Assembly (NCBI GenBank): GCA_001805445.1
Contig: MHGF01000022.1
Coordinates: 10,613-74,612, forward strand
DNA from: Omnitrophica WOR_2 bacterium GWF2_43_52
GTDB lineage: Bacteria; Omnitrophota; Gorgyraeia; Gygaellales; UBA12090
DNA length: 64,000 nt
Direction: 5' to 3'
Every line of letters starts with the position of its first letter. Within the stretch, counting starts at the first letter, position 1. The translations under genes were made by a program, and so were the position numbers. Below are positions 31,681 to 43,161 of this stretch, one piece after another. The notes below the pieces were generated by a model, which was given only the letters and a program-made list of their open reading frames with translations, was not told the origin of the DNA and searched no databases.

Positions 31681-32538
31681 TCACAGCGCACTAGTGGTGC
31701 CGATTAGTTTTTTGACCACTGCCAAATTCTGTTTATCCGCGGACTCGGAATCTTTCGGTGTCTCCAGGATAAAAGCAACGTCTTTGAGGCGCCTGTCATG
31801 TAAGAGCCGCCGAAAACCTGCTAAACCGATTTTTCCTTTACCAATATGTTCATGCCTGTCACGGTGGCTGGATAAAATATCCTTCGTATCGTTTAAATGA
31901 ATGAGCTTAAGCCGCTCAAAACCAACGATGGTATCTAACTGGCGCATGGTTTCTTTATAGCCATCTTCAGAAGCTAAATCATAGCCTGCGGCATAGGCGT
32001 GGCAGGTATCTAAACATATTCCTACCCTCTGTTTTTGCTCTAAACCATCAATAATCCGGCGGCTATGCTCAAAACAATACCCTAACCAAGAGCCTGATCC
32101 GGAAGTATTTTCCAAAAGAAGCTTGACCGGTGATTTTTTTGTCCTCTTTAAAATCATATTGAGTGCCGAAGTAATCCTTTTAATACCTAAATCCTCCCCG
32201 CTTTTTTTATGGCTGCCCATATGGGTTACGATATACTCTACGCCCAAGGCCTCGGCCTCTTTAATGTCTTCAATATAAGCCTTAACCGAATCCCTGTATA
32301 ATACCGCAAAAGGCGAGGCAAGGTTTATAAGATACGGCACATGCATAAACACGGGCGCAATATTACTTTCTGTCCTACGTTTTCTAAACTCCTCGATATC
32401 CTCAAGGCTTAAGCGCGCTTTACGCCACTGGCGGGGATCACGGGAGAATATCTGCATTGTAGTAACCCCAAGCGCCTTTGCCCTATCAATCGCCTCATAA
32501 ATATGCCCCGCCACTGAAACATGAACACCTATACGCAT
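31681..32538 (-). CDS. nfo: Endonuclease IV (AP endonuclease, xylose-isomerase-like TIM barrel)
   Basis: IHLNDTKDILSSHRDRHEHIGKGKIG metal-binding signature. Confidence 0.85.
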   Translation of the reverse strand: MRIGVHVSVAGHIYEAIDRAKALGVTTMQIFSRDPRQWRKARLSLEDIEEFRKRRTESNIAPVFMHVPYLINLASPFAVLYRDSVKAYIEDIKEAEALGVEYIVTHMGSHKKSGEDLGIKRITSALNMILKRTKKSPVKLLLENTSGSGSWLGYCFEHSRRIIDGLEQKQRVGICLDTCHAYAAGYDLASEDGYKETMRQLDTIVGFERLKLIHLNDTKDILSSHRDRHEHIGKGKIGLAGFRRLLHDRRLKDVAFILETPKDSESADKQNLAVVKKLIGTTSAL

Positions 32539-32620: not shown

Positions 32621-33388
32621 TTATCGTTGTGTCCCTTCCTTTATGTGATACGCAACTTTATTCTTCTTACAAAACTTAATAACTGCCTGAGCTGAACTGT
32701 TGTAGAATTCCTTAGTATATTTAAATTCAGAAGATTTAACGCTATAGTTAAGCCGGCCAAATATAATTTTGTTTACAAATGATACTGCCTCTAAGATCTC
32801 CCTCAAATCCTGCTTAATTAAATTTGGCGTTGGGTATGGTTCCATGCTCACCCAAGTTTTGAATCCTCTACTACTCAGGTTCTTTAAGGTTTTAACTCTG
32901 TCCTTAAAAGGAGCGGAATTCGGCTCAAATTCCTTCCTGAAATCTTCGCTCAAGGATACCAAAGTAATGCCATATTCATTATTCGTACTTTGCCCGTTTC
33001 TGTCCGCTAATTCTTTGGGATAGGTACCCTTAGTTAGCACTGTGCAACGAATACTATTTTGATTAAGCCTATCAATAATTTTAAGGCTTAATTCGCCTAC
33101 TTCCGGTTGATTATACATGAATGGATCCGTAGAAAAACACATGTGGACATATTTTATTTTTTCTTTATAGCGAGGGATCTCCTTGTCTAGAAGCTCTAAT
33201 GCATTAGAAACAATCTTAGGCCGGCACCAATCTTCATAGGTTTTGACTATACCACATCTTTTTTTCATCATATAAGCGTAGCAGGGATATTTACAGCCAT
33301 GAGAACAACCCTCTACATGGTTTAAGCAAAAGTCGGCATATTCAACGCCGCTTTGATAAAGTAAAGTTTTACGCTCTATCTGATTCAT
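32621..33388 (-). CDS. COG1533/SPL-like radical-SAM-related protein with variant three-Cys cluster C-x3-C-x3-C
   Basis: GCSHGCKYPCYAY resembles the GCxHxCxYCYA core of DNA-repair-photolyase-like radical SAM proteins but with a one-residue insertion; start overlaps the upstream gene by 20 nt. Confidence 0.45.
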   Translation of the reverse strand: MNQIERKTLLYQSGVEYADFCLNHVEGCSHGCKYPCYAYMMKKRCGIVKTYEDWCRPKIVSNALELLDKEIPRYKEKIKYVHMCFSTDPFMYNQPEVGELSLKIIDRLNQNSIRCTVLTKGTYPKELADRNGQSTNNEYGITLVSLSEDFRKEFEPNSAPFKDRVKTLKNLSSRGFKTWVSMEPYPTPNLIKQDLREILEAVSFVNKIIFGRLNYSVKSSEFKYTKEFYNSSAQAVIKFCKKNKVAYHIKEGTQR

Positions 33389-34466
33389 CTTTAAATTGAA
33401 TTATATCGTTTTCTTCTATGGCTTTTCTCTGGCGCCCCTTAGGCGTGAATGGAGGAATTCTTCGAATTTTGATTTTATTCTTTGCTTCTAAACATTTTAA
33501 GGTATCCCTGAATTGACTCTCTAAGTAAACAGTCGAATCGATATTATCCTCAAGCAACGATTTAAATGATACTTCTTTGCCGAGATATTTTTTAAATAAT
33601 AACTCTATTATCTCACTTTGTTTTATATCCGCAAGTTCAAATAATTCTAGCTGACCAGAGCGGAATCCGCGATATTCCACTCGTCCGAGATTGTATTTAG
33701 CAAAAGACGATTTCATAATAGAACAGCCCATATAATAATTAGATAAATGAAAAAGATAATAATAAGTTTTGCGTTTCTCAGGAAATTCAAGTTTATAATA
33801 ATACACAAATTTAGAAAATGTCTTTAGCTGTTCCCTGTAGTGCTCGATAATTCCTTTCTCTCTTGCCTGCCCTTTCAATGTTTTGAATATCTGCCAACCG
33901 TTTCCACCAAATAAATCATTGTAAACATTCTCAACTCTTGGTGCAGATAAAAACTGATTTATTCGCGTAAACATAAAATTCAACAATATCTCTGATTTCT
34001 CAACGCTCATAATCTTTTTTAAAGTTTCCATCTTTATTTTGAATCCAAATGGATCTATAAAAACGAATGTTGGCGCAATATTCTTTACCGTACTAATAAC
34101 ATTATTTATGGTTTCATCAAAATCTTTGTCCACCATAAATGGCTTTATTTTAATCTTCGAATAATCCAGAATTTTCTGTATATTCTCCAAGTGTTCTTTG
34201 CTTTCATCAACAATAATAACATTTATATCTCGAGAGTTTTTTAAAGCTATCCTCTCAATAGCCTGACAGACTAATACCGGTGAACCATAAAAAAGCTTTC
34301 CTTCTTTATCTTTATATCCCCCAATCCCACCAAAACCATCGATAAAATTAAGTTTATTATATTTCCCGACAATTTTTATCCATTTATCAATATAATCAGC
34401 AAAAACAGAGTGCTTGGTTTTAGTCTGTTCTTCGTACTCCCAGGTTTTAAATGGCAATTCACCCAT
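33369..34466 (-). CDS. TcmP-like (three-Cys-motif partner) protein with methyltransferase-fold motifs
   Basis: LNFIDGFGGIGGY (FxGxG SAM-binding motif-I-like) and FVFIDPFGF (DPPY/DPPF-like motif IV) about 90 aa apart; family name recalled from memory, not verified. Confidence 0.4.
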   Translation of the reverse strand: MGELPFKTWEYEEQTKTKHSVFADYIDKWIKIVGKYNKLNFIDGFGGIGGYKDKEGKLFYGSPVLVCQAIERIALKNSRDINVIIVDESKEHLENIQKILDYSKIKIKPFMVDKDFDETINNVISTVKNIAPTFVFIDPFGFKIKMETLKKIMSVEKSEILLNFMFTRINQFLSAPRVENVYNDLFGGNGWQIFKTLKGQAREKGIIEHYREQLKTFSKFVYYYKLEFPEKRKTYYYLFHLSNYYMGCSIMKSSFAKYNLGRVEYRGFRSGQLELFELADIKQSEIIELLFKKYLGKEVSFKSLLEDNIDSTVYLESQFRDTLKCLEAKNKIKIRRIPPFTPKGRQRKAIEENDIIQFKDESDRA

Positions 34467-34479
34467 AATTATACTTTTG

Positions 34480-35460
34480 TTAAAACTGTTTAAATTTATA
34501 TTTACGAGTTAACAGTTTAACTTTTGCTTGTAAATCAGAATCAGACCCGCAAGCTGAAGCTTTTTTTATATTATAAGCTTCTGCTAGGGGTTGAAAAATA
34601 TTCTCGGTTAAGTCGTATATCTTTTTATGTAATCCTTCGCAATACTCAAAAATATCACATTCCATCAAGAGATCATCAAAATATGATTTGAGATTGTCTT
34701 CTTTTGACTTTCCATACGTAATACCTTGCTGAAAATAGTATGGCCATTGCCGGGAAAGAAAATGGTAGAATTTCTCATCGTTATCGTGGAAAAGAAATCC
34801 GCTATGATACCTAAAATGAGCCATTTTATCCCTATAAAGTTTAAATAGCTCAAACCACTCATTATTGCTATCATCGAGTATTTCCATTTTAATAAGATTG
34901 TTTATATCATCCTGATATTTTTCATCAGCTGAAACAATGGTTTTTTTACCCGAAGCAGCTGACGTTTTTAAGCCATCCTTGACTTTCTTTACAATCTCGG
35001 CAAAACTCGCTCTGCCGAAATTACCCCATGATAAAACAGCGCTTATGACTTCAGCGGTAGAATCTAAAATTGAATACATATTGATTAATAAAAGCTGAAG
35101 GCACCTGTTGAAGTGCTTAGGCGCTGAGGGATCAAAAGGCTCATTTTTTAGTTTCTTTATGGGGTTATAGGTATCAGCGTCATATTTTTTCATCAAATCA
35201 AACAACTCATGGTAATCCTCAAAAGAGGATTTTATTAAATCGACACTTGCGCCAAGATGAGAAAACATTATTCTTTGGTCATCAGCCAAGAACTTCGGGC
35301 ATTTATCAAAAGAAAAATAGTCTGCCTCAACATAAAATTTAAACAAAGGTTCAGGAATAACCTTGCTATTACGTGCCACTATCCATGAATCTTCGGGACA
35401 TGTTCTGGCTAATAGTGCTGATACAACAACATCTGCGGTTAAGCAATCTTTAAATTTCAT
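34480..35460 (-). CDS. Hypothetical protein of the cassette (possible HEPN-like R-x4-H motif)
   Basis: 326-aa ORF, AT-rich, tightly spaced with neighbours; YRDKMAHF motif. Confidence 0.3.
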   Translation of the reverse strand: MKFKDCLTADVVVSALLARTCPEDSWIVARNSKVIPEPLFKFYVEADYFSFDKCPKFLADDQRIMFSHLGASVDLIKSSFEDYHELFDLMKKYDADTYNPIKKLKNEPFDPSAPKHFNRCLQLLLINMYSILDSTAEVISAVLSWGNFGRASFAEIVKKVKDGLKTSAASGKKTIVSADEKYQDDINNLIKMEILDDSNNEWFELFKLYRDKMAHFRYHSGFLFHDNDEKFYHFLSRQWPYYFQQGITYGKSKEDNLKSYFDDLLMECDIFEYCEGLHKKIYDLTENIFQPLAEAYNIKKASACGSDSDLQAKVKLLTRKYKFKQF

Positions 35461-35565
35461 TATTCTAATCTTTCAATAATTATTTCTTAGACCAAGCGCC
35501 AATGTCATGTGCAGTCAACTGGATTTAATCAATTTAAACCAGCATATTACGCTACGAACTGCGAA

Positions 35566-36831
35566 TTATTTAGAGAAAATGCCATGGTCAACAAGCAATG
35601 GTGTTATAGAAGCGTCAACTAAACATCCGACAATTGCGCCCTTGCCTTCTTCAAATAGTTTTCGCGCCTCAATATTGTAATTTTCTCGAAGCTTTTTTAA
35701 GTCGGAGACATTTTCATTCCTTTTTAAATCAGTTTCGAGTTTAGCCATAAAATTAACAAGGTTATCGTAATTTAAACCTAATAAAAGCGTATTTCCTAAA
35801 ATAAAATCTTTAACTTCTATATGTTTCGCCGTTGCCGCAATCCATTCTTTTTGCGAAATATGATTTGCCCCTACGGCAAAGAGGGCACAAATATACCCCT
35901 CTGCGAGGGTTGCCTTTAGTGAATATATTGAACTTTTCTCTAAGTCATTTTCATCTAACAGTTTTTCTAATGCTAATATCCGCGCGTAGCTCTCTTCGTA
36001 CTTCTTTTCATTCGCTATTTTAGAAATATCTTGTGTTTCTTTAAGAGCATACTTCATGATTTTTTCCTTATCGATATTATTCTTTGCAGTATCGCCATTT
36101 TCGCGAATTGGAGGAAATACTTTCTCCGTGAAATCTACTATCTCTAATTTCCACCATAAATGATTTTTATGGTCGCCGAACTTACGGTAACGCTTACTCG
36201 GATAGTAATAGTCGTGGTCTGAAGGCGATATAGATTTACTATGAAATTGCTCCAAATTCTTAAAATCAGTTATGTTCAATCGAAATAAAATCGCGTCCAA
36301 CGGAATTTCCCGAGTTATAAGTGAGCTTATCTCGTCATATCTTCCTCGATTTAAATGTATTATCAATTCATTCGTTCTAAATAAATATGAGCAGGCCAGG
36401 GATTCCGTTAAAAACGGAACTCCTTCTAAAGCTTTTTGTTCTTCGTCAGAATAAAGGTCTGAAAAACAAAATTCATAGAAAGTCAGAGGATTTAGATAAT
36501 TCCCATTCGCATCTTCTATTTCAAAATAATCATTGAATTTTTCATCTTCATACGTCCAGATTTTTGCTCGACAGTAGTTATTCGCGTATAATTCCATTTT
36601 ATATGTAACACTGAATTTCTTTTTAGATATTTTCTCTACCGCTGAATCATCGTAGCTAGTTTTATTTTTAATCGTCTTTAGATAAAATGCTGGAAGTGGG
36701 GTAAGAGAAATGCTAACAATCTGATCTATCCCAGTAGGATTTACTATTTTTTCTATTAATGGACATTTGCAATGTAAACACGCTTTAATATTATCATCAT
36801 ATGATTTGTTGCATTTAGGACACTGTTTCAT
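35566..36831 (-). CDS. Hypothetical protein with N-terminal zinc ribbon (first gene of cassette operon)
   Basis: CPKCNKSY...CLHCKC at N-terminus; GAGGAGG SD upstream. Confidence 0.4.
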   Translation of the reverse strand: MKQCPKCNKSYDDNIKACLHCKCPLIEKIVNPTGIDQIVSISLTPLPAFYLKTIKNKTSYDDSAVEKISKKKFSVTYKMELYANNYCRAKIWTYEDEKFNDYFEIEDANGNYLNPLTFYEFCFSDLYSDEEQKALEGVPFLTESLACSYLFRTNELIIHLNRGRYDEISSLITREIPLDAILFRLNITDFKNLEQFHSKSISPSDHDYYYPSKRYRKFGDHKNHLWWKLEIVDFTEKVFPPIRENGDTAKNNIDKEKIMKYALKETQDISKIANEKKYEESYARILALEKLLDENDLEKSSIYSLKATLAEGYICALFAVGANHISQKEWIAATAKHIEVKDFILGNTLLLGLNYDNLVNFMAKLETDLKRNENVSDLKKLRENYNIEARKLFEEGKGAIVGCLVDASITPLLVDHGIFSK

Positions 36832-36867
36832 GGTTACCTCCTCACATCTCTTTAGTTAACTTAAAAA

Positions 36868-36912
36868 ACAAAAACCTCCGCCACTACTGGCGAAGGTTTT
36901 AATTATTTTTAC
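36868..36912 (-). terminator. Rho-independent terminator after the XRE regulator gene
   Basis: ccttcgccagtagtggcggagg hairpin followed by tttttgtttttt on the minus strand. Confidence 0.55.
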
Positions 36913-36991
36913 GTGGCAGTTCCCCCTTCAAACATACCACTTTACTTATACTTAATCGTTGTCTTACATATAGCATAAATTTACCGCCGAG

Positions 36992-37189
36992 TCAAACAAT
37001 TTTTGCCAAGTCATCAAGCGAAATGCCTAAAGATTTTGCTATGCCAACCATAGTGGAAAAAGTAGGATTTTTTGACTCCCCAGATTCAATCTTCACAATC
37101 GTGTTAAAAGATACATCTGCCAAGCAAGCCAGTTTTTCTTGAGATAAACCTTTTTTTAGCCTTAATTCTCTAATTTTCTTAGCTGACAT
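36992..37189 (-). CDS. XRE-family helix-turn-helix transcriptional regulator (65 aa)
   Basis: LRLKKGLSQEKLACLADVSFNTIVKIESG... HTH_3 pattern. Confidence 0.85.
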   Translation of the reverse strand: MSAKKIRELRLKKGLSQEKLACLADVSFNTIVKIESGESKNPTFSTMVGIAKSLGISLDDLAKIV

Positions 37190-37337
37190 TCTCTGACTTT
37201 ATATACTTTTACATATAAACTTTTATTAATAGCGTTTGCCCTATAGCGAATTTAATATACCACATTTTGAGCTTATTTTCCAATCAAAATCGGCAGCAAG
37301 ATGGGCATCAAGAAGCATTGATTTTTGCTTACTTGTA

Positions 37338-37362
37338 TTAAATAAAGCCTAACTTTATTTAA
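37338..37362. promoter_or_regulatory. Perfect 10-bp-arm palindrome, candidate operator for the XRE regulator
   Basis: ttaaataaag cctaa ctttatttaa in the XRE promoter region. Confidence 0.35.
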
Positions 37363-37392
37363 TAAACACGCTATGAAATTATCCCGGACTAT

Positions 37393-37440
37393 AAAATTTT
37401 TGCACGAAAACAGCTCTTTTTTACGTCTTATATAGTAGGA
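37393..37440 (+). promoter_or_regulatory. Conserved promoter-like motif copy C1 (AAAATTTTTGCACGAAAA-N13-ACGTCTTATATAGTAGG)
   Basis: Near-identical to copies at 39032-39080 and 41574-41623; diverged copy at 43104-43150. Confidence 0.5.
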
Positions 37441-37502
37441 GTATAGTGGTAAAAACTATAACCATTTATGCCAAAAAACGCACTATATGAGGAGGGGAAT
37501 AA

Positions 37503-38207
37503 ATGTTCAAAAAATATTCAAAGCGGATAAAACAAAGAATACGCAATTTAAGAAGCCGAGGCTGGTCATTGGGAGAAATTGGTTTAAAAACGGGCATACC
37601 TAAGAATACCCTGTCTGAATGGGTCAGAGATATTCAGCTTTCTAAGGCTCAAGAAAAACGAATAAAAGAAAAGGAAATAGCATCAGCGGCCATTGGAAGA
37701 GATATAGCCAGAAAAATATTGCGTGAAAAAATTGATAAATGGAAGGAAAAAATACGAGAAAAGGTAAAACATTTTGGCAAATCAGCTTTACTAAATCAAG
37801 AAATGGGAAAACTTGTATGTGGATTATTATATCTGTGCGAAGGCTCTAAGTATCCTTCTACCAGATGTTTGATTTTCGGTAACTCCGATCCTAGAATAAT
37901 CAAGGCGTTCCTTAATTTATTAAGGAACTATTTCCGTATTCGAGAGGACAAGTTACGCTGCAGAATCACTCCTCGTTGGGACCAAAACATTAATAAGTTG
38001 CAGATTTTCTGGTCAAATATTACTAAGATTCCTATTGAACAATTCTACCACACAATACCTGACAAGCGTACCAAAGGCAAGACTACTGGAAAGGAAGATT
38101 ATCAAGGAGTTTGCGTTATATATTATTGCGATACCTCATTACAATTTGAGTTACAATCAATCGGTGAAGCAGTAATTAAAGGTGTAGGGGGGAAATCGAA
38201 AAGTTAG
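37503..38207 (+). CDS. HTH-domain protein (234 aa), possibly a degenerate homing-endonuclease or transposase-like protein
   Basis: N-terminal HTH (GWSLGEIGLKTGIPKNTLSEW); weak LAGLIDADG-like GLLYLCEGS; abuts tRNA-Ala. Confidence 0.4.
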   Translation: MFKKYSKRIKQRIRNLRSRGWSLGEIGLKTGIPKNTLSEWVRDIQLSKAQEKRIKEKEIASAAIGRDIARKILREKIDKWKEKIREKVKHFGKSALLNQEMGKLVCGLLYLCEGSKYPSTRCLIFGNSDPRIIKAFLNLLRNYFRIREDKLRCRITPRWDQNINKLQIFWSNITKIPIEQFYHTIPDKRTKGKTTGKEDYQGVCVIYYCDTSLQFELQSIGEAVIKGVGGKSKS

Positions 38208-38280
38208 TGGAGCTGGAGGGGATCGAACCCTCTGCCTCTTCCATGCCATGGAAGCGCTCTCCCAGGTGAGCTACAGCCCC
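38208..38280 (-). tRNA. tRNA-Ala (anticodon GGC)
   Basis: Reverse complement folds as GGGGCTG/CAGCTCC acceptor with G3:U70, D-stem GCTC/GAGC, anticodon loop AT-GGC-AT, T-loop TTCGATC; no encoded CCA. Confidence 0.85.
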
Positions 38281-38346: not shown

Positions 38347-38739
38347 TTATTCTTGCTTTAAATACTCCGATAGCTTCTCCCAAGTGCGGCTGCCCATGAC
38401 TCCATCTGCATTTAATCCATTTGCTTCCTGGAATTTTCTGATTGCTTCTTTGGTCGCGGAACCGATTTGCCCGTCTGCCTCACCTTTATAAAATCCGGCA
38501 TTCTTTAGCGCGGTTTGAATCTCGGTGGCTACCGGCATCTTAAAGACTACTTTTTGCTTTTTCGTGGCATCGGTCAAGGCCTCTGACAACGCATTCACCT
38601 TGTCTTTTAAGGCGCTATTCTCCTTTTGCAGGCGCTCAACTTGCCCTTCAAGCGAATTTATTTTACCCTGATACTCCAGCGTGGCGCATCCTGATGCCCC
38701 AAAAATTAAAAATAACCCTAAAAATATAGTTCTACCCAT
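38347..38739 (-). CDS. Lipoprotein with coiled-coil segment and C-terminal peptidoglycan-binding (PG_binding_1) domain
   Basis: Lipobox LIFGASGC; ...FYKGEADGQIGSATKEAIRKFQEANGLNADGVMGSRTW; start set at internal ATG (ORF-track start is a TTG). Confidence 0.6.
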   Translation of the reverse strand: MGRTIFLGLFLIFGASGCATLEYQGKINSLEGQVERLQKENSALKDKVNALSEALTDATKKQKVVFKMPVATEIQTALKNAGFYKGEADGQIGSATKEAIRKFQEANGLNADGVMGSRTWEKLSEYLKQE

Positions 38740-38789
38740 TTGGCTTTTCTCCTTTTTTAGAAGAGTAATTATACCCCAGCTTTCTTTGT

Positions 38790-38818
38790 TTGACAAATAT
38801 TATTTTAGGTGCTATATT
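38790..38818 (+). promoter_or_regulatory. Consensus sigma-70 promoter driving tRNA-Leu
   Basis: TTGACA - 17 nt - TATATT, 17 nt upstream of the tRNA 5' end. Confidence 0.5.
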
Positions 38819-38835
38819 TTACTCATTCTTCCTTT

Positions 38836-38918
38836 GCTGGAGTGGTGGAATGGCATACACGCCAGTCTCAAAAACTGGTGGGGTCACACCCGTGTGGGTT
38901 CAACTCCCACCTCCAGCA
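38836..38918 (+). tRNA. tRNA-Leu (anticodon CAA), type II with long variable arm
   Basis: GCTGGAG/CTCCAGC acceptor stem, anticodon stem CCAGT/ACTGG with loop CT-CAA-AA, variable arm GGGGTCACACCC, T-arm GTGGG TTCAACT CCCAC, discriminator A; embedded in spurious N-terminal extension of ORF 38681..39613. Confidence 0.75.
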
Positions 38919-39031
38919 TTTATTATTTTTGGGTTCTCCCGTCCCTCTTGTTAGCTTGCGCGGCGGGATCCCGCTACGCGGGAAACTCCCTTCCCCGGCA
39001 CCATATCTTCCTCCTATCTCATAATCTCCTG

Positions 39032-39080
39032 AAAATTTTTGCACGAAAACCGCCTCTTACTCCGTCTTATATTGTAGGAG
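39032..39080 (+). promoter_or_regulatory. Conserved promoter-like motif copy C2
   Basis: gaaaatttttgcacgaaaaccgcctcttactccgtcttatattgtaggagg directly upstream of ORF6N-1 ATG. Confidence 0.5.
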
Positions 39081-39088
39081 GCGAAGAT

Positions 39089-39613
39089 ATGGCTGATTTA
39101 ATATCTACAGAAATAATAACTGCAAATATTTTAGTTATAAGAGGTAAAAGGGTTATGCTAGATAGTGATTTAGCTGTGCTTTATGGCGTAAAGACCGGAA
39201 GATTAAACGAACAGGTAAGTAGAAACATTAAAAGGTTTCCGGAAGACTTTATGTTTCTGCTTACCAAAGAAGAGGCTTTAAGCTTGAAATCGCATTTTGC
39301 GACTTCAAGCTGGGGCGGCGTAAGAAAACTCCCTCGCGCCTTTACCCAAGAAGGTGTCGCTATGCTCTCAGGTGTGTTAAGCAGCGAACGCGCAATTATG
39401 GTCAATATACAGATTATGCGCGCCTTTACTCATCTAAGGCGCATGCTTCTAACCAATAAGGACCTCAAACGAAGAATTGAAGAAATGGAAGAGAAATACG
39501 ATAAGCAGTTTGCGATAGTATTTCAAGCTTTAAAACAATTATTGGAACCTGCGCCGACAAAACCAAAATCGCAGATTGGGTTTCGTATGTATAATGATTC
39601 TGAAAAAAGTTAA
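39089..39613 (+). CDS. ORF6N-domain DNA-binding protein, paralog 1
   Basis: VMLDSDLAVLYGVKTGRLNEQVSRNIKRFPEDFMFLLT core; AGGAGG SD; ORF-track N-terminal extension rejected. Confidence 0.75.
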   Translation: MADLISTEIITANILVIRGKRVMLDSDLAVLYGVKTGRLNEQVSRNIKRFPEDFMFLLTKEEALSLKSHFATSSWGGVRKLPRAFTQEGVAMLSGVLSSERAIMVNIQIMRAFTHLRRMLLTNKDLKRRIEEMEEKYDKQFAIVFQALKQLLEPAPTKPKSQIGFRMYNDSEKS

Positions 39614-41573: not shown

Positions 41574-41623
41574 AAAAAATTTTGCACGAAAATAGCTTCC
41601 TTTTACGTCTTATATAGTAGGGG
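41574..41623 (+). promoter_or_regulatory. Conserved promoter-like motif copy C3
   Basis: aaaaaattttgcacgaaaatagcttccttttacgtcttatatagtagggg. Confidence 0.5.
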
Positions 41624-41720
41624 CAATATTTTAACCCTAATTTGGCCAATTAGATGCCAAAGTAAACCTTGATGCGCCATTTTGGCACATCAAATCGGGC
41701 GTTGGAAGGAGGAATACACT

Positions 41721-42293
41721 ATGTCTAAGGCTATCACCGCGGAAATCATCGCTGCAGAAATTCTAGAATTTAGAGGAAAAAAGGTAATGCTGGATCGTGA
41801 TTTAGCAACACTTTATGGAGTTACTCCTAAAGTTTTGAATCAAGCAGTAAAAAGAAATATCAAACGTTTTCCTGAGGATTTTATGTTTCAGCTCTCTTGG
41901 GAAGAAACAGATTCTTTAAGGTCACAATTTGTGACCTTAAAGAATACAAGACTCGAAGCCTCCAAAAGAGGCAAACATATTAAATATCTCCCCTATGTTT
42001 TTACAGAACACGGTGTAGCTATGCTCTCCAGCGTTTTAAACAGCGAAAGAGCCATACAAGTGAACATCCAAATTATGAGGGCTTTTACTAAATTAAGAGA
42101 AATGCTGCTAACTCATAAAGACTTAGCAGAAAAGATTGAGACCCTTGAGAAGAAATACGCCGAACATGATCAGGCTATTAAGGCAATATTTGAAGCAATT
42201 AAACAGCTCCTTGAGCCGCCGCTAGCAAAACCAAAGCCACAGATTGGATTCCGCTCTTATAAAGAGCCTACAGAAGAAGTAAAATATGCCTAA
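41721..42293 (+). CDS. ORF6N-domain DNA-binding protein, paralog 2
   Basis: VMLDRDLATLYGVTPKVLNQAVKRNIKRFPEDFMFQLS; start set at MSKAITAEI after GGAAGGAGG SD. Confidence 0.75.
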   Translation: MSKAITAEIIAAEILEFRGKKVMLDRDLATLYGVTPKVLNQAVKRNIKRFPEDFMFQLSWEETDSLRSQFVTLKNTRLEASKRGKHIKYLPYVFTEHGVAMLSSVLNSERAIQVNIQIMRAFTKLREMLLTHKDLAEKIETLEKKYAEHDQAIKAIFEAIKQLLEPPLAKPKPQIGFRSYKEPTEEVKYA

Positions 42294-43103: not shown

Positions 43104-43150
43104 CAAAATTTTTGGGAATAAAATGAGAACTTTTTACGTCTAATATGGTG
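43104..43150 (+). promoter_or_regulatory. Diverged copy C4 of the conserved promoter-like motif, upstream of the ECF sigma gene
   Basis: acaaaatttttgggaataaaatgagaactttttacgtctaatatgg; shares AAAATTTTTG and TTTTTACGTCTnATAT blocks with C1-C3. Confidence 0.45.
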
Positions 43151-43161
43151 AAAGGGCAATA

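What the first reader, a model, noticed from the sequence alone, without database searches (positions are those of the whole stretch)
32621..33388. Radical-SAM/SPL-like protein with a C-x3-C-x3-C cluster instead of canonical C-x3-C-x2-C
The motif ...YADFCLNHVEGCSHGCKYPCYAYMMKK matches the GC-H-C-YCYA pattern of COG1533 'DNA repair photolyase'-type radical SAM proteins, except for an inserted proline between the second and third cysteines. A fourth cysteine lies 7 residues upstream. If real, this changes the geometry of the [4Fe-4S]/SAM site, or marks a non-canonical Fe-S enzyme that needs its MTase-fold partner.
Basis: partly seen in the sequence, partly recalled or inferred. Interest (0 to 1): 0.6.

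Follow-up and report, generated by a model that had tools for sequence, protein, structure and literature searches.

The report
Radical SAM enzyme with proline-inserted cysteine motif
This gene encodes a DNA-repair-lyase-like radical SAM enzyme whose iron-sulfur-binding motif carries one extra, strictly conserved proline (C-x3-C-x3-C instead of C-x3-C-x2-C); it forms a mobile two-gene cassette of unknown function with a methyltransferase-like DNA-binding partner (TcmP), found in many bacteria, archaea and viral contigs.

Summary
Window 32621-33388 (-) encodes a 255-aa radical SAM protein (GenBank OGW98861.1, Omnitrophica WOR_2). Its motif GCSHGCKYPCYA reads directly from the DNA. C28, H30, C32 and C36 are invariant in 76 family representatives. 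The proline is a one-column insertion, present in 53 of those 76. The other 23 have the canonical C-x3-C-x2-C and are interleaved with the variant.

The protein is closest to spore photoproduct lyase in sequence profile and predicted fold, but it reaches the cut-off of no curated subfamily. The "fourth cysteine" (C21) is conserved only among close relatives (9% family-wide).

The gene overlaps by 20 nt an upstream TcmP gene ("three-Cys-motif partner protein": class I methyltransferase fold plus winged helix). This pairing holds in 63 of 80 genome loci and 53 of 62 viral loci, and natural TcmP-radical SAM fusions exist. The cassette often sits beside type IIG or type III restriction-modification genes.

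The proline variant is not tied to TcmP. Five divergent C-x3-C-x3-C members lack TcmP, and TcmP elsewhere pairs with C-x3-C-x2-C or C-x6-C-x2-C proteins.

Most likely this is a working radical SAM enzyme with a tolerated motif variant, acting with TcmP on DNA. Its chemistry is unknown. Verdict: new variant of a known kind, moderate interest.

The parts
32621..33388 (-). Radical SAM protein, 255 aa, SPL/COG1533-like, variant cluster motif (GenBank OGW98861.1)
   Evidence: ORF. PF04055 57.3 bits against cut-off 29.5. AF2 model pLDDT 91.8; best PDB fold match is spore photoproduct lyase 4fhc. Exact sequence is named 'radical SAM protein' in NCBI.
33281..33307 (-). Codons for C28-S-H-G-C32-K-Y-P-C36: the C-x3-C-x3-C motif
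   Evidence: DNA read. C28/H30/C32/C36 are 100% conserved in 76 representatives. Aligned to the SPL cluster cysteines.
33284..33286 (-). Codon ccc = Pro35, the one-residue insertion between the aromatic residue and the third Cys
   Evidence: Single-column indel: Pro in 53 representatives, gap in 23. Pro in 53/53 of those with the insertion.
33326..33328 (-).
   Evidence: Cys in 120/120 close homologues but in 9% of family representatives.
33369..34466 (-). TcmP, three-Cys-motif partner protein, 365 aa (GenBank OGW98860.1)
   Evidence: TIGR04474 162.9 bits against cut-off 53. PADLOC PDC-M30A 1.1e-26. AF2 pLDDT 93.9. Immediately upstream on the same strand in 63/80 genome loci and 53/62 viral loci.
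33687..34466 (-). TcmP residues about 1-260: class I SAM-methyltransferase fold, motif I IDGFGGIG, motif IV-like IDPFGF
   Evidence: Foldseek hits to RlmJ, DUF519, Trm1 and O-methyltransferases. Invariant D43, G47, G49, D138, P139, G141. Strand order from DSSP.
33462..33644 (-). TcmP residues 275-335: winged helix-turn-helix (GMT-like wHTH)
   Evidence: PF22560 27.1 bits against cut-off 27, E 6e-6.
33369..33388 (-). 20-nt overlap between the TcmP stop and the radical SAM start (operon, probable translational coupling)
   Evidence: ORF coordinates. In other loci the gap is typically -31 to +100 nt. Natural fusions in the same order.
32621..38206 (.). Low-GC island (34-38% against about 44%) holding the cassette, between nfo (31681-32538) and tRNA-Ala (38207-38280)
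   Evidence: Composition, tRNAs, nfo. Neighbours of the cassette differ in every related locus.

Best explanation
The gene encodes a functional radical SAM enzyme of the spore-photoproduct-lyase/COG1533-like branch. Its [4Fe-4S]-binding triad has the spacing C-x3-C-x3-C because one proline is inserted between the conserved aromatic residue and the third cysteine (GCxHGCx[Y/F]-P-CYA). This is a fixed, selectively maintained variant of the canonical loop that still does the canonical job. C28, C32 and C36 hold the cluster, the fourth iron binds SAM, and Y34, D88 and K120 contribute to the SAM site as their aligned counterparts may do in SPL.

The enzyme is half of a mobile two-gene cassette. The co-translated upstream protein, TcmP, combines a SAM-binding class I methyltransferase fold (with an amino-methyltransferase-like DPFGF loop) and a winged-helix DNA-binding domain. 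The most likely working model has TcmP binding DNA and presenting a target nucleotide. The radical SAM partner then uses the 5'-deoxyadenosyl radical to abstract a hydrogen atom, and together they install or remove a DNA modification. Mobile elements and defence islands would use this alongside restriction-modification systems.

Shown here: the motif and its conservation, the fold, the pairing, the fusions and the restriction-modification neighbourhood. Inferred only: cluster binding, SAM cleavage, DNA as substrate, and the chemistry.
For: Motif:
- Invariant C28/H30/C32/C36; Pro in 53/53 members with the insertion.
- The triad and flanks align to the SPL motif, with Pro as the only insertion. 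The SPL signatures (S/T)xTD, TK and EPxxxxxxxR are kept; D88, K120 and R164 are 97-99% conserved.

Fold: AF2 pLDDT 91.8. The motif sits in the loop between a beta strand and helix 37-44. Top PDB hits are SPL and then other radical SAM enzymes.

Functional equivalence of the two spacings:
- 23 of 76 representatives are canonical and interleaved with the variant. 12 of 23 have a variant member as nearest neighbour.
- Fitch parsimony gives 12 changes on the NJ tree.
- One locus carries a canonical and a variant paralogue in tandem.

Partnership:
- TcmP passes TIGR04474.
- It lies directly upstream in 63/80 genome loci and 53/62 viral loci.
- About 20 natural TcmP-radical SAM fusions of roughly 630 aa all carry the variant motif.
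- TcmP has a methyltransferase fold with conserved SAM motifs plus a wHTH.

DNA/conflict context:
- An Eco57I-type IIG enzyme occurs in 11/80 genome loci, directly upstream of TcmP in at least L057, L060 and L067.
- A type III-like N6_N4 methylase lies directly downstream in 17/62 viral loci and ResIII in 11/62.
- PADLOC lists TcmP plus a three-Cys protein as candidate systems PDC-M30 and PDC-M41.
- Relatives at 62-91% identity occur across bacterial and archaeal phyla and at 49-61% on viral contigs, which indicates horizontal transfer.
Against: - No biochemical data exist for any member. I found no paper on TcmP function or on a C-x3-C-x3-C radical SAM motif.
- The second spacing (x2) positions the aromatic residue and the third Cys against SAM in solved radical SAM enzymes, so an extra residue there could impair SAM binding. 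AF2 does not model the cluster and I could not read model coordinates.
- The substrate is inferred only from SPL similarity, the wHTH and the neighbours. Defence-island neighbourhood is weak evidence for any mechanism.
- About 10 of some 70 genome loci with enough flank, and all ten divergent members looked up, lack TcmP. The radical SAM protein can therefore work without it.
- The NJ tree is star-like and unbootstrapped, so the number of indel events is uncertain.
Confidence: 0.6

Rival explanations
1. The proline insertion disables SAM binding. The protein would then be a radical-SAM-derived Fe-S (or zinc) protein with a structural, redox or regulatory cluster, possibly with invariant His30 as a fourth ligand. 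TcmP would be the only SAM-using enzyme of the pair.
For: The x2 spacing between the second and third Cys is the least variable part of the motif in known radical SAM enzymes (my knowledge, not tested here). H30 is 100% conserved inside the motif. Pfam is the only library whose cut-off the protein passes; all curated NCBIfam radical SAM subfamilies are missed by wide margins.
Against: H30 and the whole GCxHGC context are just as invariant in the canonical C-x3-C-x2-C members of the same family and in the Halopiger TcmP-partnered radical SAM protein, so His30 is not specific to the variant. Residues aligned with the conserved SPL signature motifs (D88, K120, the EP...R motif) stay 88-99% conserved in a set dominated by variant members. 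Variant and canonical members are nearest neighbours and occur in tandem.
Confidence: 0.12
2. The C-x3-C-x3-C spacing is an adaptation to the TcmP partner: the cluster loop is remodelled to form the interface or to receive SAM or electrons from TcmP.
For: Every TcmP-adjacent member of this family has the variant: 63 genome loci, 53 viral loci and about 20 fusions. The 17 distant canonical members on viral contigs and 5 canonical representatives have no TcmP.
Against: Five divergent variant members (P0144, P0153, P0168, P0218, P0259) also have no TcmP within the flanks, at hmmsearch E<=1. TcmP pairs with a canonical C-x3-C-x2-C radical SAM protein in Halopiger and with C-x6-C-x2-C Gp37/Gp68 proteins in Burkholderia and Rhodococcus. 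The correlation inside the family is therefore explained by descent: one TcmP-linked subclade arose within an already variant lineage.
Confidence: 0.1
3. It is a stand-alone DNA repair lyase (an SPL-type 'DNA repair photolyase', as JGI annotates relatives). Its position next to endonuclease IV in this window would reflect a repair role, with TcmP as an accessory damage-recognition factor.
For: SPL is the closest solved relative. JGI names cluster members 'DNA repair photolyase'. nfo lies directly downstream. C84 (67% conserved) sits one residue from the position of the SPL catalytic Cys.
Against: The SPL catalytic Cys aligns with F85, not with a Cys. Only one family member gave even a weak hit to the SPL model TIGR04070 (37 bits against a cut-off of 400). 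nfo is not a neighbour in any of the 80 related genome loci. The cassette sits in a low-GC island, is horizontally mobile and neighbours restriction-modification genes, which is not the pattern of a housekeeping repair gene.
Confidence: 0.13

Closest known systems
Spore photoproduct lyase (SplB; PDB 4fhc/4fhg)
   Same: Radical SAM partial barrel. It is the only PDB family hit by the family profile (E 5e-6) and the best fold match (TM 0.69-0.71). The two share GCxxxCxYCY-type motif flanks, the (S/T)xTD, TK and EPxxxxxxxR signatures, and SPL acts on DNA.
   Different: SPL has the canonical C-x3-C-x2-C. About 12% identity. The SPL catalytic Cys aligns with Phe85. This protein is about 85 residues shorter (255 aa against 340 aa). 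No member reaches the SPL model cut-off. SPL is a sporulation repair enzyme, not a mobile cassette with TcmP.
PA0069 / Rv2578c family radical SAM proteins (COG1533 'DNA repair photolyase', uncharacterised)
   Same: Best NCBIfam similarities (E 1e-12 and 8e-12) over residues about 19-203, with the same GCxHGCxYC[YF]A-type motif context. I recall the COG1533 motif pattern from memory; I did not read those sequences here.
   Different: Scores of 45-47 bits against cut-offs of 360-430, so it is not a member. Those families are longer (317-348 positions) and canonical in spacing. No TcmP link is known to me.
TcmP + phage Gp37/Gp68 (DUF5131, PF07505) pairs; PADLOC candidates PDC-M30 / PDC-M41
   Same: The same partner family (TcmP) sits next to a small three-Cys protein that ends in CYA. 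The N-terminal strand-hairpin plus Cys loop gives weak DUF5131 and PDC-M30B/M41B hits. The pairs lie on plasmids and in defence-type contexts.
   Different: DUF5131 partners have C-x6-C-x2-C. This protein scores 20.1 bits against the 28.9 cut-off for PF07505 and passes PF04055 instead. PDC systems are candidates only; I found no functional test.
Halopiger xanaduensis pHALXA02 radical SAM + TcmP pair
   Same: A radical SAM protein with GCRHGCKFCY next to an annotated TcmP.
   Different: Canonical C-x3-C-x2-C. 26% identity, 349 aa, and the opposite gene order (radical SAM first).
Known non-canonical radical SAM cluster motifs (ThiC C-x2-C-x4-C, HmdB C-x5-C-x2-C, some QueE C-x14-C-x2-C; from my own knowledge)
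   Same: Precedent that the triad spacing can differ while SAM radical chemistry is kept.
   Different: Most documented variants change the first spacing and keep C-x2-C. Here the second spacing changes by a single invariant Pro, and it alternates with the canonical form within one family. Library searches for C-x3-C-x3-C in radical SAM enzymes found only an apparent misprint for NifB and unrelated peptides.

Membership tests
Radical SAM superfamily (PF04055) | Profile match above the Pfam gathering score | tested here: met
   57.3 bits against cut-off 29.5, residues 23-200.
Radical SAM superfamily (PF04055) | Canonical C-x3-C-x2-C triad | tested here: not met
   The spacing is C-x3-C-x3-C. 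The three Cys are invariant and align to the SPL triad with one inserted Pro.
Radical SAM superfamily (PF04055) | Partial (beta/alpha) barrel with the Cys loop after strand 1 | tested here: met
   AF2 pLDDT 91.8. Loop 27-36 is followed by helix 37-44. 31 PDB hits at E<=1e-3, all radical SAM enzymes.
Radical SAM superfamily (PF04055) | SAM-binding residues outside the triad | tested here: inconclusive
   D88, K120 and the E155-P156...R164 motif align with the conserved SPL motifs and are 88-99% conserved. Their contact with SAM is inferred, not shown.
Radical SAM superfamily (PF04055) | [4Fe-4S] binding and reductive SAM cleavage | not testable with these tools
   Needs anaerobic reconstitution, EPR and a 5'-deoxyadenosine assay.
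Spore photoproduct lyase (TIGR04070) | Model cut-off and the catalytic Cys (C140 in PDB 4fhc) | tested here: not met
   No hit for the window protein. One relative scores 37 bits against cut-off 400. The SPL C140 position aligns with F85.
PA0069 (NF033668) / Rv2578c (NF038135) radical SAM families | Score at or above the curated cut-off | tested here: not met
   44.9 against 360 and 47.3 against 430. The same holds for ten divergent relatives.
DUF5131 / phage Gp37/Gp68 (PF07505) | Pfam gathering score; C-x6-C-x2-C motif | tested here: not met
   20.1 bits against 28.9, N-terminal half only. The motif differs from the Burkholderia and Rhodococcus Gp37/Gp68 proteins.
Radical SAM mobile pair B (TIGR04470) | Score at or above the curated cut-off | tested here: not met
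   33 bits against 410.
TcmP-partnered three-Cys-motif protein (context defined by TIGR04474) | Adjacent gene passes TIGR04474 | tested here: met
   162.9 bits against cut-off 53. NCBI and JGI name homologues TcmP.
TcmP-partnered three-Cys-motif protein (context defined by TIGR04474) | Conserved adjacency or fusion with a protein bearing three clustered Cys | tested here: met
   20-nt overlap in the window. 63/80 genome loci and 53/62 viral loci. Fusions.
PADLOC candidate system PDC-M30 / PDC-M41 | Both components match the PADLOC profiles | tested here: inconclusive
   A component: 1.1e-26 (M30A) and 3.1e-11 (M41A). B component: only 8.4e-5 and 1.5e-5, over the N-terminal 110 residues.
PADLOC candidate system PDC-M30 / PDC-M41 | Demonstrated anti-phage activity | not testable with these tools
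   Only correlative mentions found. The source preprint does not discuss it.

The most novel reading that the evidence does not exclude
TcmP plus its three-Cys radical SAM partner is an uncharacterised two-enzyme system that makes a new radical-SAM-dependent DNA modification (or performs a new anti-phage or anti-restriction reaction). It has spread by horizontal transfer through bacteria, CPR, DPANN and other archaea and their viruses. The Pro-inserted C-x3-C-x3-C loop would be the first documented family-wide change of the 'x2' spacing that still supports SAM radical chemistry, with natural canonical/variant pairs available as built-in controls.
Probability: 0.3. Interest if true: 0.75.

Novelty: new variant of a known kind. 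Interest (0 to 1): 0.5.

Why it matters
- The C-x2-C half of the radical SAM motif is usually treated as fixed, because it positions the aromatic residue and third cysteine against SAM. This family has thousands of members in which one proline is inserted there, and close relatives, even tandem paralogues, keep the canonical form. That is a natural experiment on how much the SAM/cluster site tolerates.
- Motif-based annotation that demands C-x3-C-x2-C will miss these proteins.
- The gene belongs to a widespread, horizontally mobile TcmP cassette whose function nobody has tested.
- The cassette's SPL-like fold, DNA-binding methyltransferase-like partner, natural fusions and repeated placement beside type IIG and type III restriction-modification genes make it a concrete candidate for a new DNA modification or defence activity.

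Tried and rejected
Runs that gave nothing or failed:
- Single-sequence searches of both proteins against PDB sequences gave only noise. A TcmP profile against PDB also gave nothing meaningful.
- The first genome scan, with a 42-sequence alignment, failed for lack of a conserved stretch. It was redone with 11 closer sequences.
- Literature searches for TcmP, DUF5131, Gp37/Gp68, PF22560/GMT-wHTH, PDC-M30/M41 and C-x3-C-x3-C found no functional study.
- The third protein search (with the profile) returned mostly the same close relatives and added little diversity.
- Collections of cultured phages and plasmids hold no close relative, only a metagenomic 'Bacteriophage sp.' at 54%.
- Direct repeats flanking the island that would mark an integration site were not found.

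Ideas considered and rejected:
- C21 as a fourth cluster ligand. It is only 9% conserved.
- The variant motif as a marker of TcmP dependence.
- Orthology with SPL, PA0069, Rv2578c, DUF5131 or mobile-pair B. All are below cut-off.
- The two upstream ORFs (326 and 421 aa) as parts of the system. They have no homologues in 80 related loci.
- Functional linkage to nfo. It is absent from all related loci.

Full report
**1. The observation**

Window 32621-33388 (minus strand) is a clean 255-aa ORF that starts with ATG. The exact protein is in GenBank as OGW98861.1, 'radical SAM protein', from Omnitrophica WOR_2 bacterium GWF2_43_52. JGI names cluster members 'DNA repair photolyase'.

**2. Is it more than chance?**

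The word-indexed search found 5,897 homologues. The exhaustive search of 50%-identity cluster representatives found 2,135 at E<=1e-3 and 139 at E<=1e-30.

- All 120 closest homologues (77-93% identity) carry C-x3-C-x3-C.
- Among 76 full-length representatives, C28, H30, C32 and C36 are 100% conserved.
- 53 of the 76 have GCxHGCx[Y/F]PCYA and 23 have the canonical GCxHxCxYC. MAFFT resolves the difference as a single column that holds Pro or a gap.
- The inserted residue is Pro in 53 of 53.
- C21 is a local feature: 120/120 in close homologues but 9% across the family.
- Two other cysteines are partly conserved: C84 at 67% and C240 at 82%.

**3. What kind of protein is it?**

Pfam Radical_SAM is passed (57.3 bits against 29.5). 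DUF5131 is missed (20.1 against 28.9).

In NCBIfam the best similarities are Rv2578c, PA0069 and 'radical SAM mobile pair B'. All are tenfold below their cut-offs. The same holds for ten divergent relatives, so the family has no curated model.

A 42-sequence family profile hits only spore photoproduct lyase in the PDB (E 5e-6). The triad aligns as GCsHgCkYPCy against GCMGHCHY-CY. The motifs cfstD, TK and EPgaap...R align with the SPL stretches AACTSD, VTK and EPGTSSFDGR. The catalytic Cys of SPL falls on F85.

The AlphaFold2 model is confident (pLDDT 91.8, pTM 0.89). The motif lies in the loop before helix 37-44. Foldseek ranks SPL first (TM 0.69-0.71), followed by SuiB, HydE, lipoyl synthase, viperin and other radical SAM enzymes.

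The protein is therefore an SPL/COG1533-like radical SAM protein. It is not an SPL orthologue.

**4. Distribution of the two spacings**

A neighbour-joining tree built without the indel column interleaves the two forms. Twelve of the 23 canonical representatives have a variant member as nearest neighbour. Fitch parsimony needs 12 changes, against 19.6 (minimum 14) for shuffled labels. There is phylogenetic signal, but there are also several switches. The tree is star-like and unbootstrapped, so the exact count is uncertain.

One metagenomic locus (L171) carries a canonical paralogue and a variant paralogue in tandem. All outgroups I could read (SPL, the Halopiger radical SAM protein and the Gp37/Gp68 proteins) have x2 before the third Cys. 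The Pro is therefore most simply a derived insertion that became dominant in this family and was lost again several times.

I read this as evidence that both loops do the same job.

**5. The partner**

The upstream gene (33369-34466, minus strand) overlaps the radical SAM start by 20 nt. [quoted passage not shown] It has a C-terminal GMT-like winged helix.

Its model (pLDDT 93.9) is a seven-stranded class I methyltransferase fold. The best geometric matches are RlmJ/DUF519, Trm1 and O-methyltransferases. The invariant residues include motif I (D43, G47, G49 in IDGFGGIG) and a motif IV-like loop right after strand 4 (D138-P139-F-G141-F). That loop resembles the (D/N)PP(Y/F) loop of amino-methyltransferases; this comparison is my inference.

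No solved relative exists by sequence.

**6. Is the pairing conserved?**

A scan of one genome per species found 597 relatives. The best 80 are 62-91% identical. They come from Omnitrophota, Nitrospirota, Planctomycetota, Patescibacteria, DPANN archaea, Methanosarcinales and other groups, which indicates horizontal transfer.

- TcmP lies directly upstream on the same strand in 63 of the 80 loci. About ten loci with enough flank lack it.
- On IMG/VR viral contigs, 62 relatives (49-61% identity) all have the variant motif, and 53 have TcmP upstream. Seventeen distant relatives (27-33% identity) are canonical and have none.
- About twenty of the 120 best TcmP homologues are natural TcmP-radical SAM fusions of roughly 630 aa. 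All carry the variant motif.
- No third gene is conserved.

**7. Is the variant motif tied to TcmP?**

It is not. I looked up ten divergent representatives: five canonical (P0140, P0136, P0146, P0157, P0204) and five variant (P0144, P0153, P0168, P0218, P0259). None has a TcmP within the flanks at hmmsearch E<=1.

Conversely, annotated TcmP genes on plasmids sit next to proteins with other spacings:

| Host plasmid | TcmP neighbour | Cys spacing |
|---|---|---|
| Halopiger xanaduensis | radical SAM protein (GCRHGCKFC) | C-x3-C-x2-C |
| Burkholderia glumae | Gp37/Gp68 protein | C-x6-C-x2-C |
| Rhodococcus sp. USK13 | Gp37/Gp68 protein | C-x6-C-x2-C |

. TcmP partners thus come in three Cys spacings. 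The TcmP-linked subclade of this family simply descends from an already variant lineage.

**8. Context**

In the window the cassette lies in a low-GC island (34-38% against about 44%) between nfo and tRNA-Ala.

- An Eco57I-type IIG restriction-modification gene occurs in 11/80 genome loci, and lies directly upstream of TcmP in at least L057, L060 and L067.
- A type III-like N6_N4 methylase lies directly downstream in 17/62 viral loci, and a ResIII helicase in 11/62.
- Other DNA methylases are frequent neighbours.
- PADLOC profiles for the candidate systems PDC-M30A and PDC-M41A match TcmP (1e-26 and 3e-11). The B profiles match the radical SAM protein only weakly.
- PHROG 13321 (unknown function) matches at 7e-22.

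**9. Mechanism**

I commit to two claims.

- (a) The protein is a working radical SAM enzyme whose cluster loop tolerates one extra Pro. I rate this at high confidence.
- (b) It acts together with TcmP on DNA, to install or remove a modification used by mobile elements alongside restriction-modification systems. I rate this at moderate confidence. It is inferred from the SPL-like fold, the winged helix, the methyltransferase-like base-binding loop, the fusions and the neighbours.

Cluster binding, SAM cleavage, the substrate and the chemistry are untested.

The rivals are a SAM-blind Fe-S protein, a partner-driven remodelling of the loop, and a plain repair lyase. Each is given with evidence in the Rival explanations section.

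**10. Novelty**

Curators evidently knew that TcmP has 'three-Cys' partners, and the protein is already annotated as radical SAM. I found no description of a conserved C-x3-C-x3-C radical SAM motif and no functional study of TcmP.

I class the finding as a new variant of a known kind and give it an interest of 0.5.

Noticed in passing
window 37393-37439, 39032-39078, 41575-41621, 43106-43152: A 47-nt promoter-like repeat (AAAATTTTTGCACGAAAA...TTTTACGTCTTATATAGTAGG, 64-89% identity to the first copy). Each copy lies just upstream of a plus-strand gene: a 234-aa protein with a weak PHROG transcriptional-regulator hit, two ORF6N/Rha-like proteins and an ECF sigma factor. It may be a shared regulatory element.
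   Followed up: no
window 34480-35460 (-) and 35566-36831 (-): Two ORFs (326 aa; 421 aa with an N-terminal zinc-ribbon-like CxxC...CxxC) in the same low-GC island. Neither has a Pfam, NCBIfam, PADLOC or PHROG family, and neither has a homologue next to the cassette in 80 related genome loci.
   Followed up: partly
window 38207-38280 (-) tRNA-Ala(GGC); 38835-38919 (+) tRNA-Leu(CAA); 38681-39613 and 41682-42293: The island ends at a pair of tRNA genes followed by two paralogous ORF6N/Rha-type antirepressor-like genes (a 185-nt repeat, 64-71% identity). This looks like the remains of an integrated element. No flanking att-like direct repeat was found.
   Followed up: partly
L171 1979-2794 (+) and 2971-3783 (+): Tandem paralogues of the family in a prophage-like contig. 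The first has the canonical GCAHNCGYCYA and the second the variant GCSHGCKYPCYV. Neither has a TcmP neighbour.
   Followed up: partly
P0121, P0297, P0299, P0326 and others (about 630 aa); P0124 (1002 aa); P0133 (592 aa): Natural TcmP-radical SAM fusion proteins, all with the variant motif. P0124 has about 750 residues before the radical SAM domain, so it may carry further domains.
   Followed up: partly
L100, L111, L112, L114, L115, L118, L119, L123, L129, L130, L132 (viral contigs): Two TcmP-like genes in tandem (about 377 aa, then about 289 aa) precede the radical SAM gene. In these elements the partner itself is duplicated.
   Followed up: no
L177 (Burkholderia glumae plasmid p79s2p, NZ_CP100265.1 99316-106500): Two TcmP genes, a Gp37/Gp68 protein, a separate 499-aa radical SAM protein and a dTMP kinase lie together. 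This hints at a link to nucleotide or DNA-base metabolism.
   Followed up: no
L166 571-3760 (+): A canonical-motif family member (P0157) lies directly after a C5 DNA methylase and an N6/N4 methylase. A PAPS-reductase-like gene, another methylase and RusA lie downstream, in a phage-like contig.
   Followed up: no
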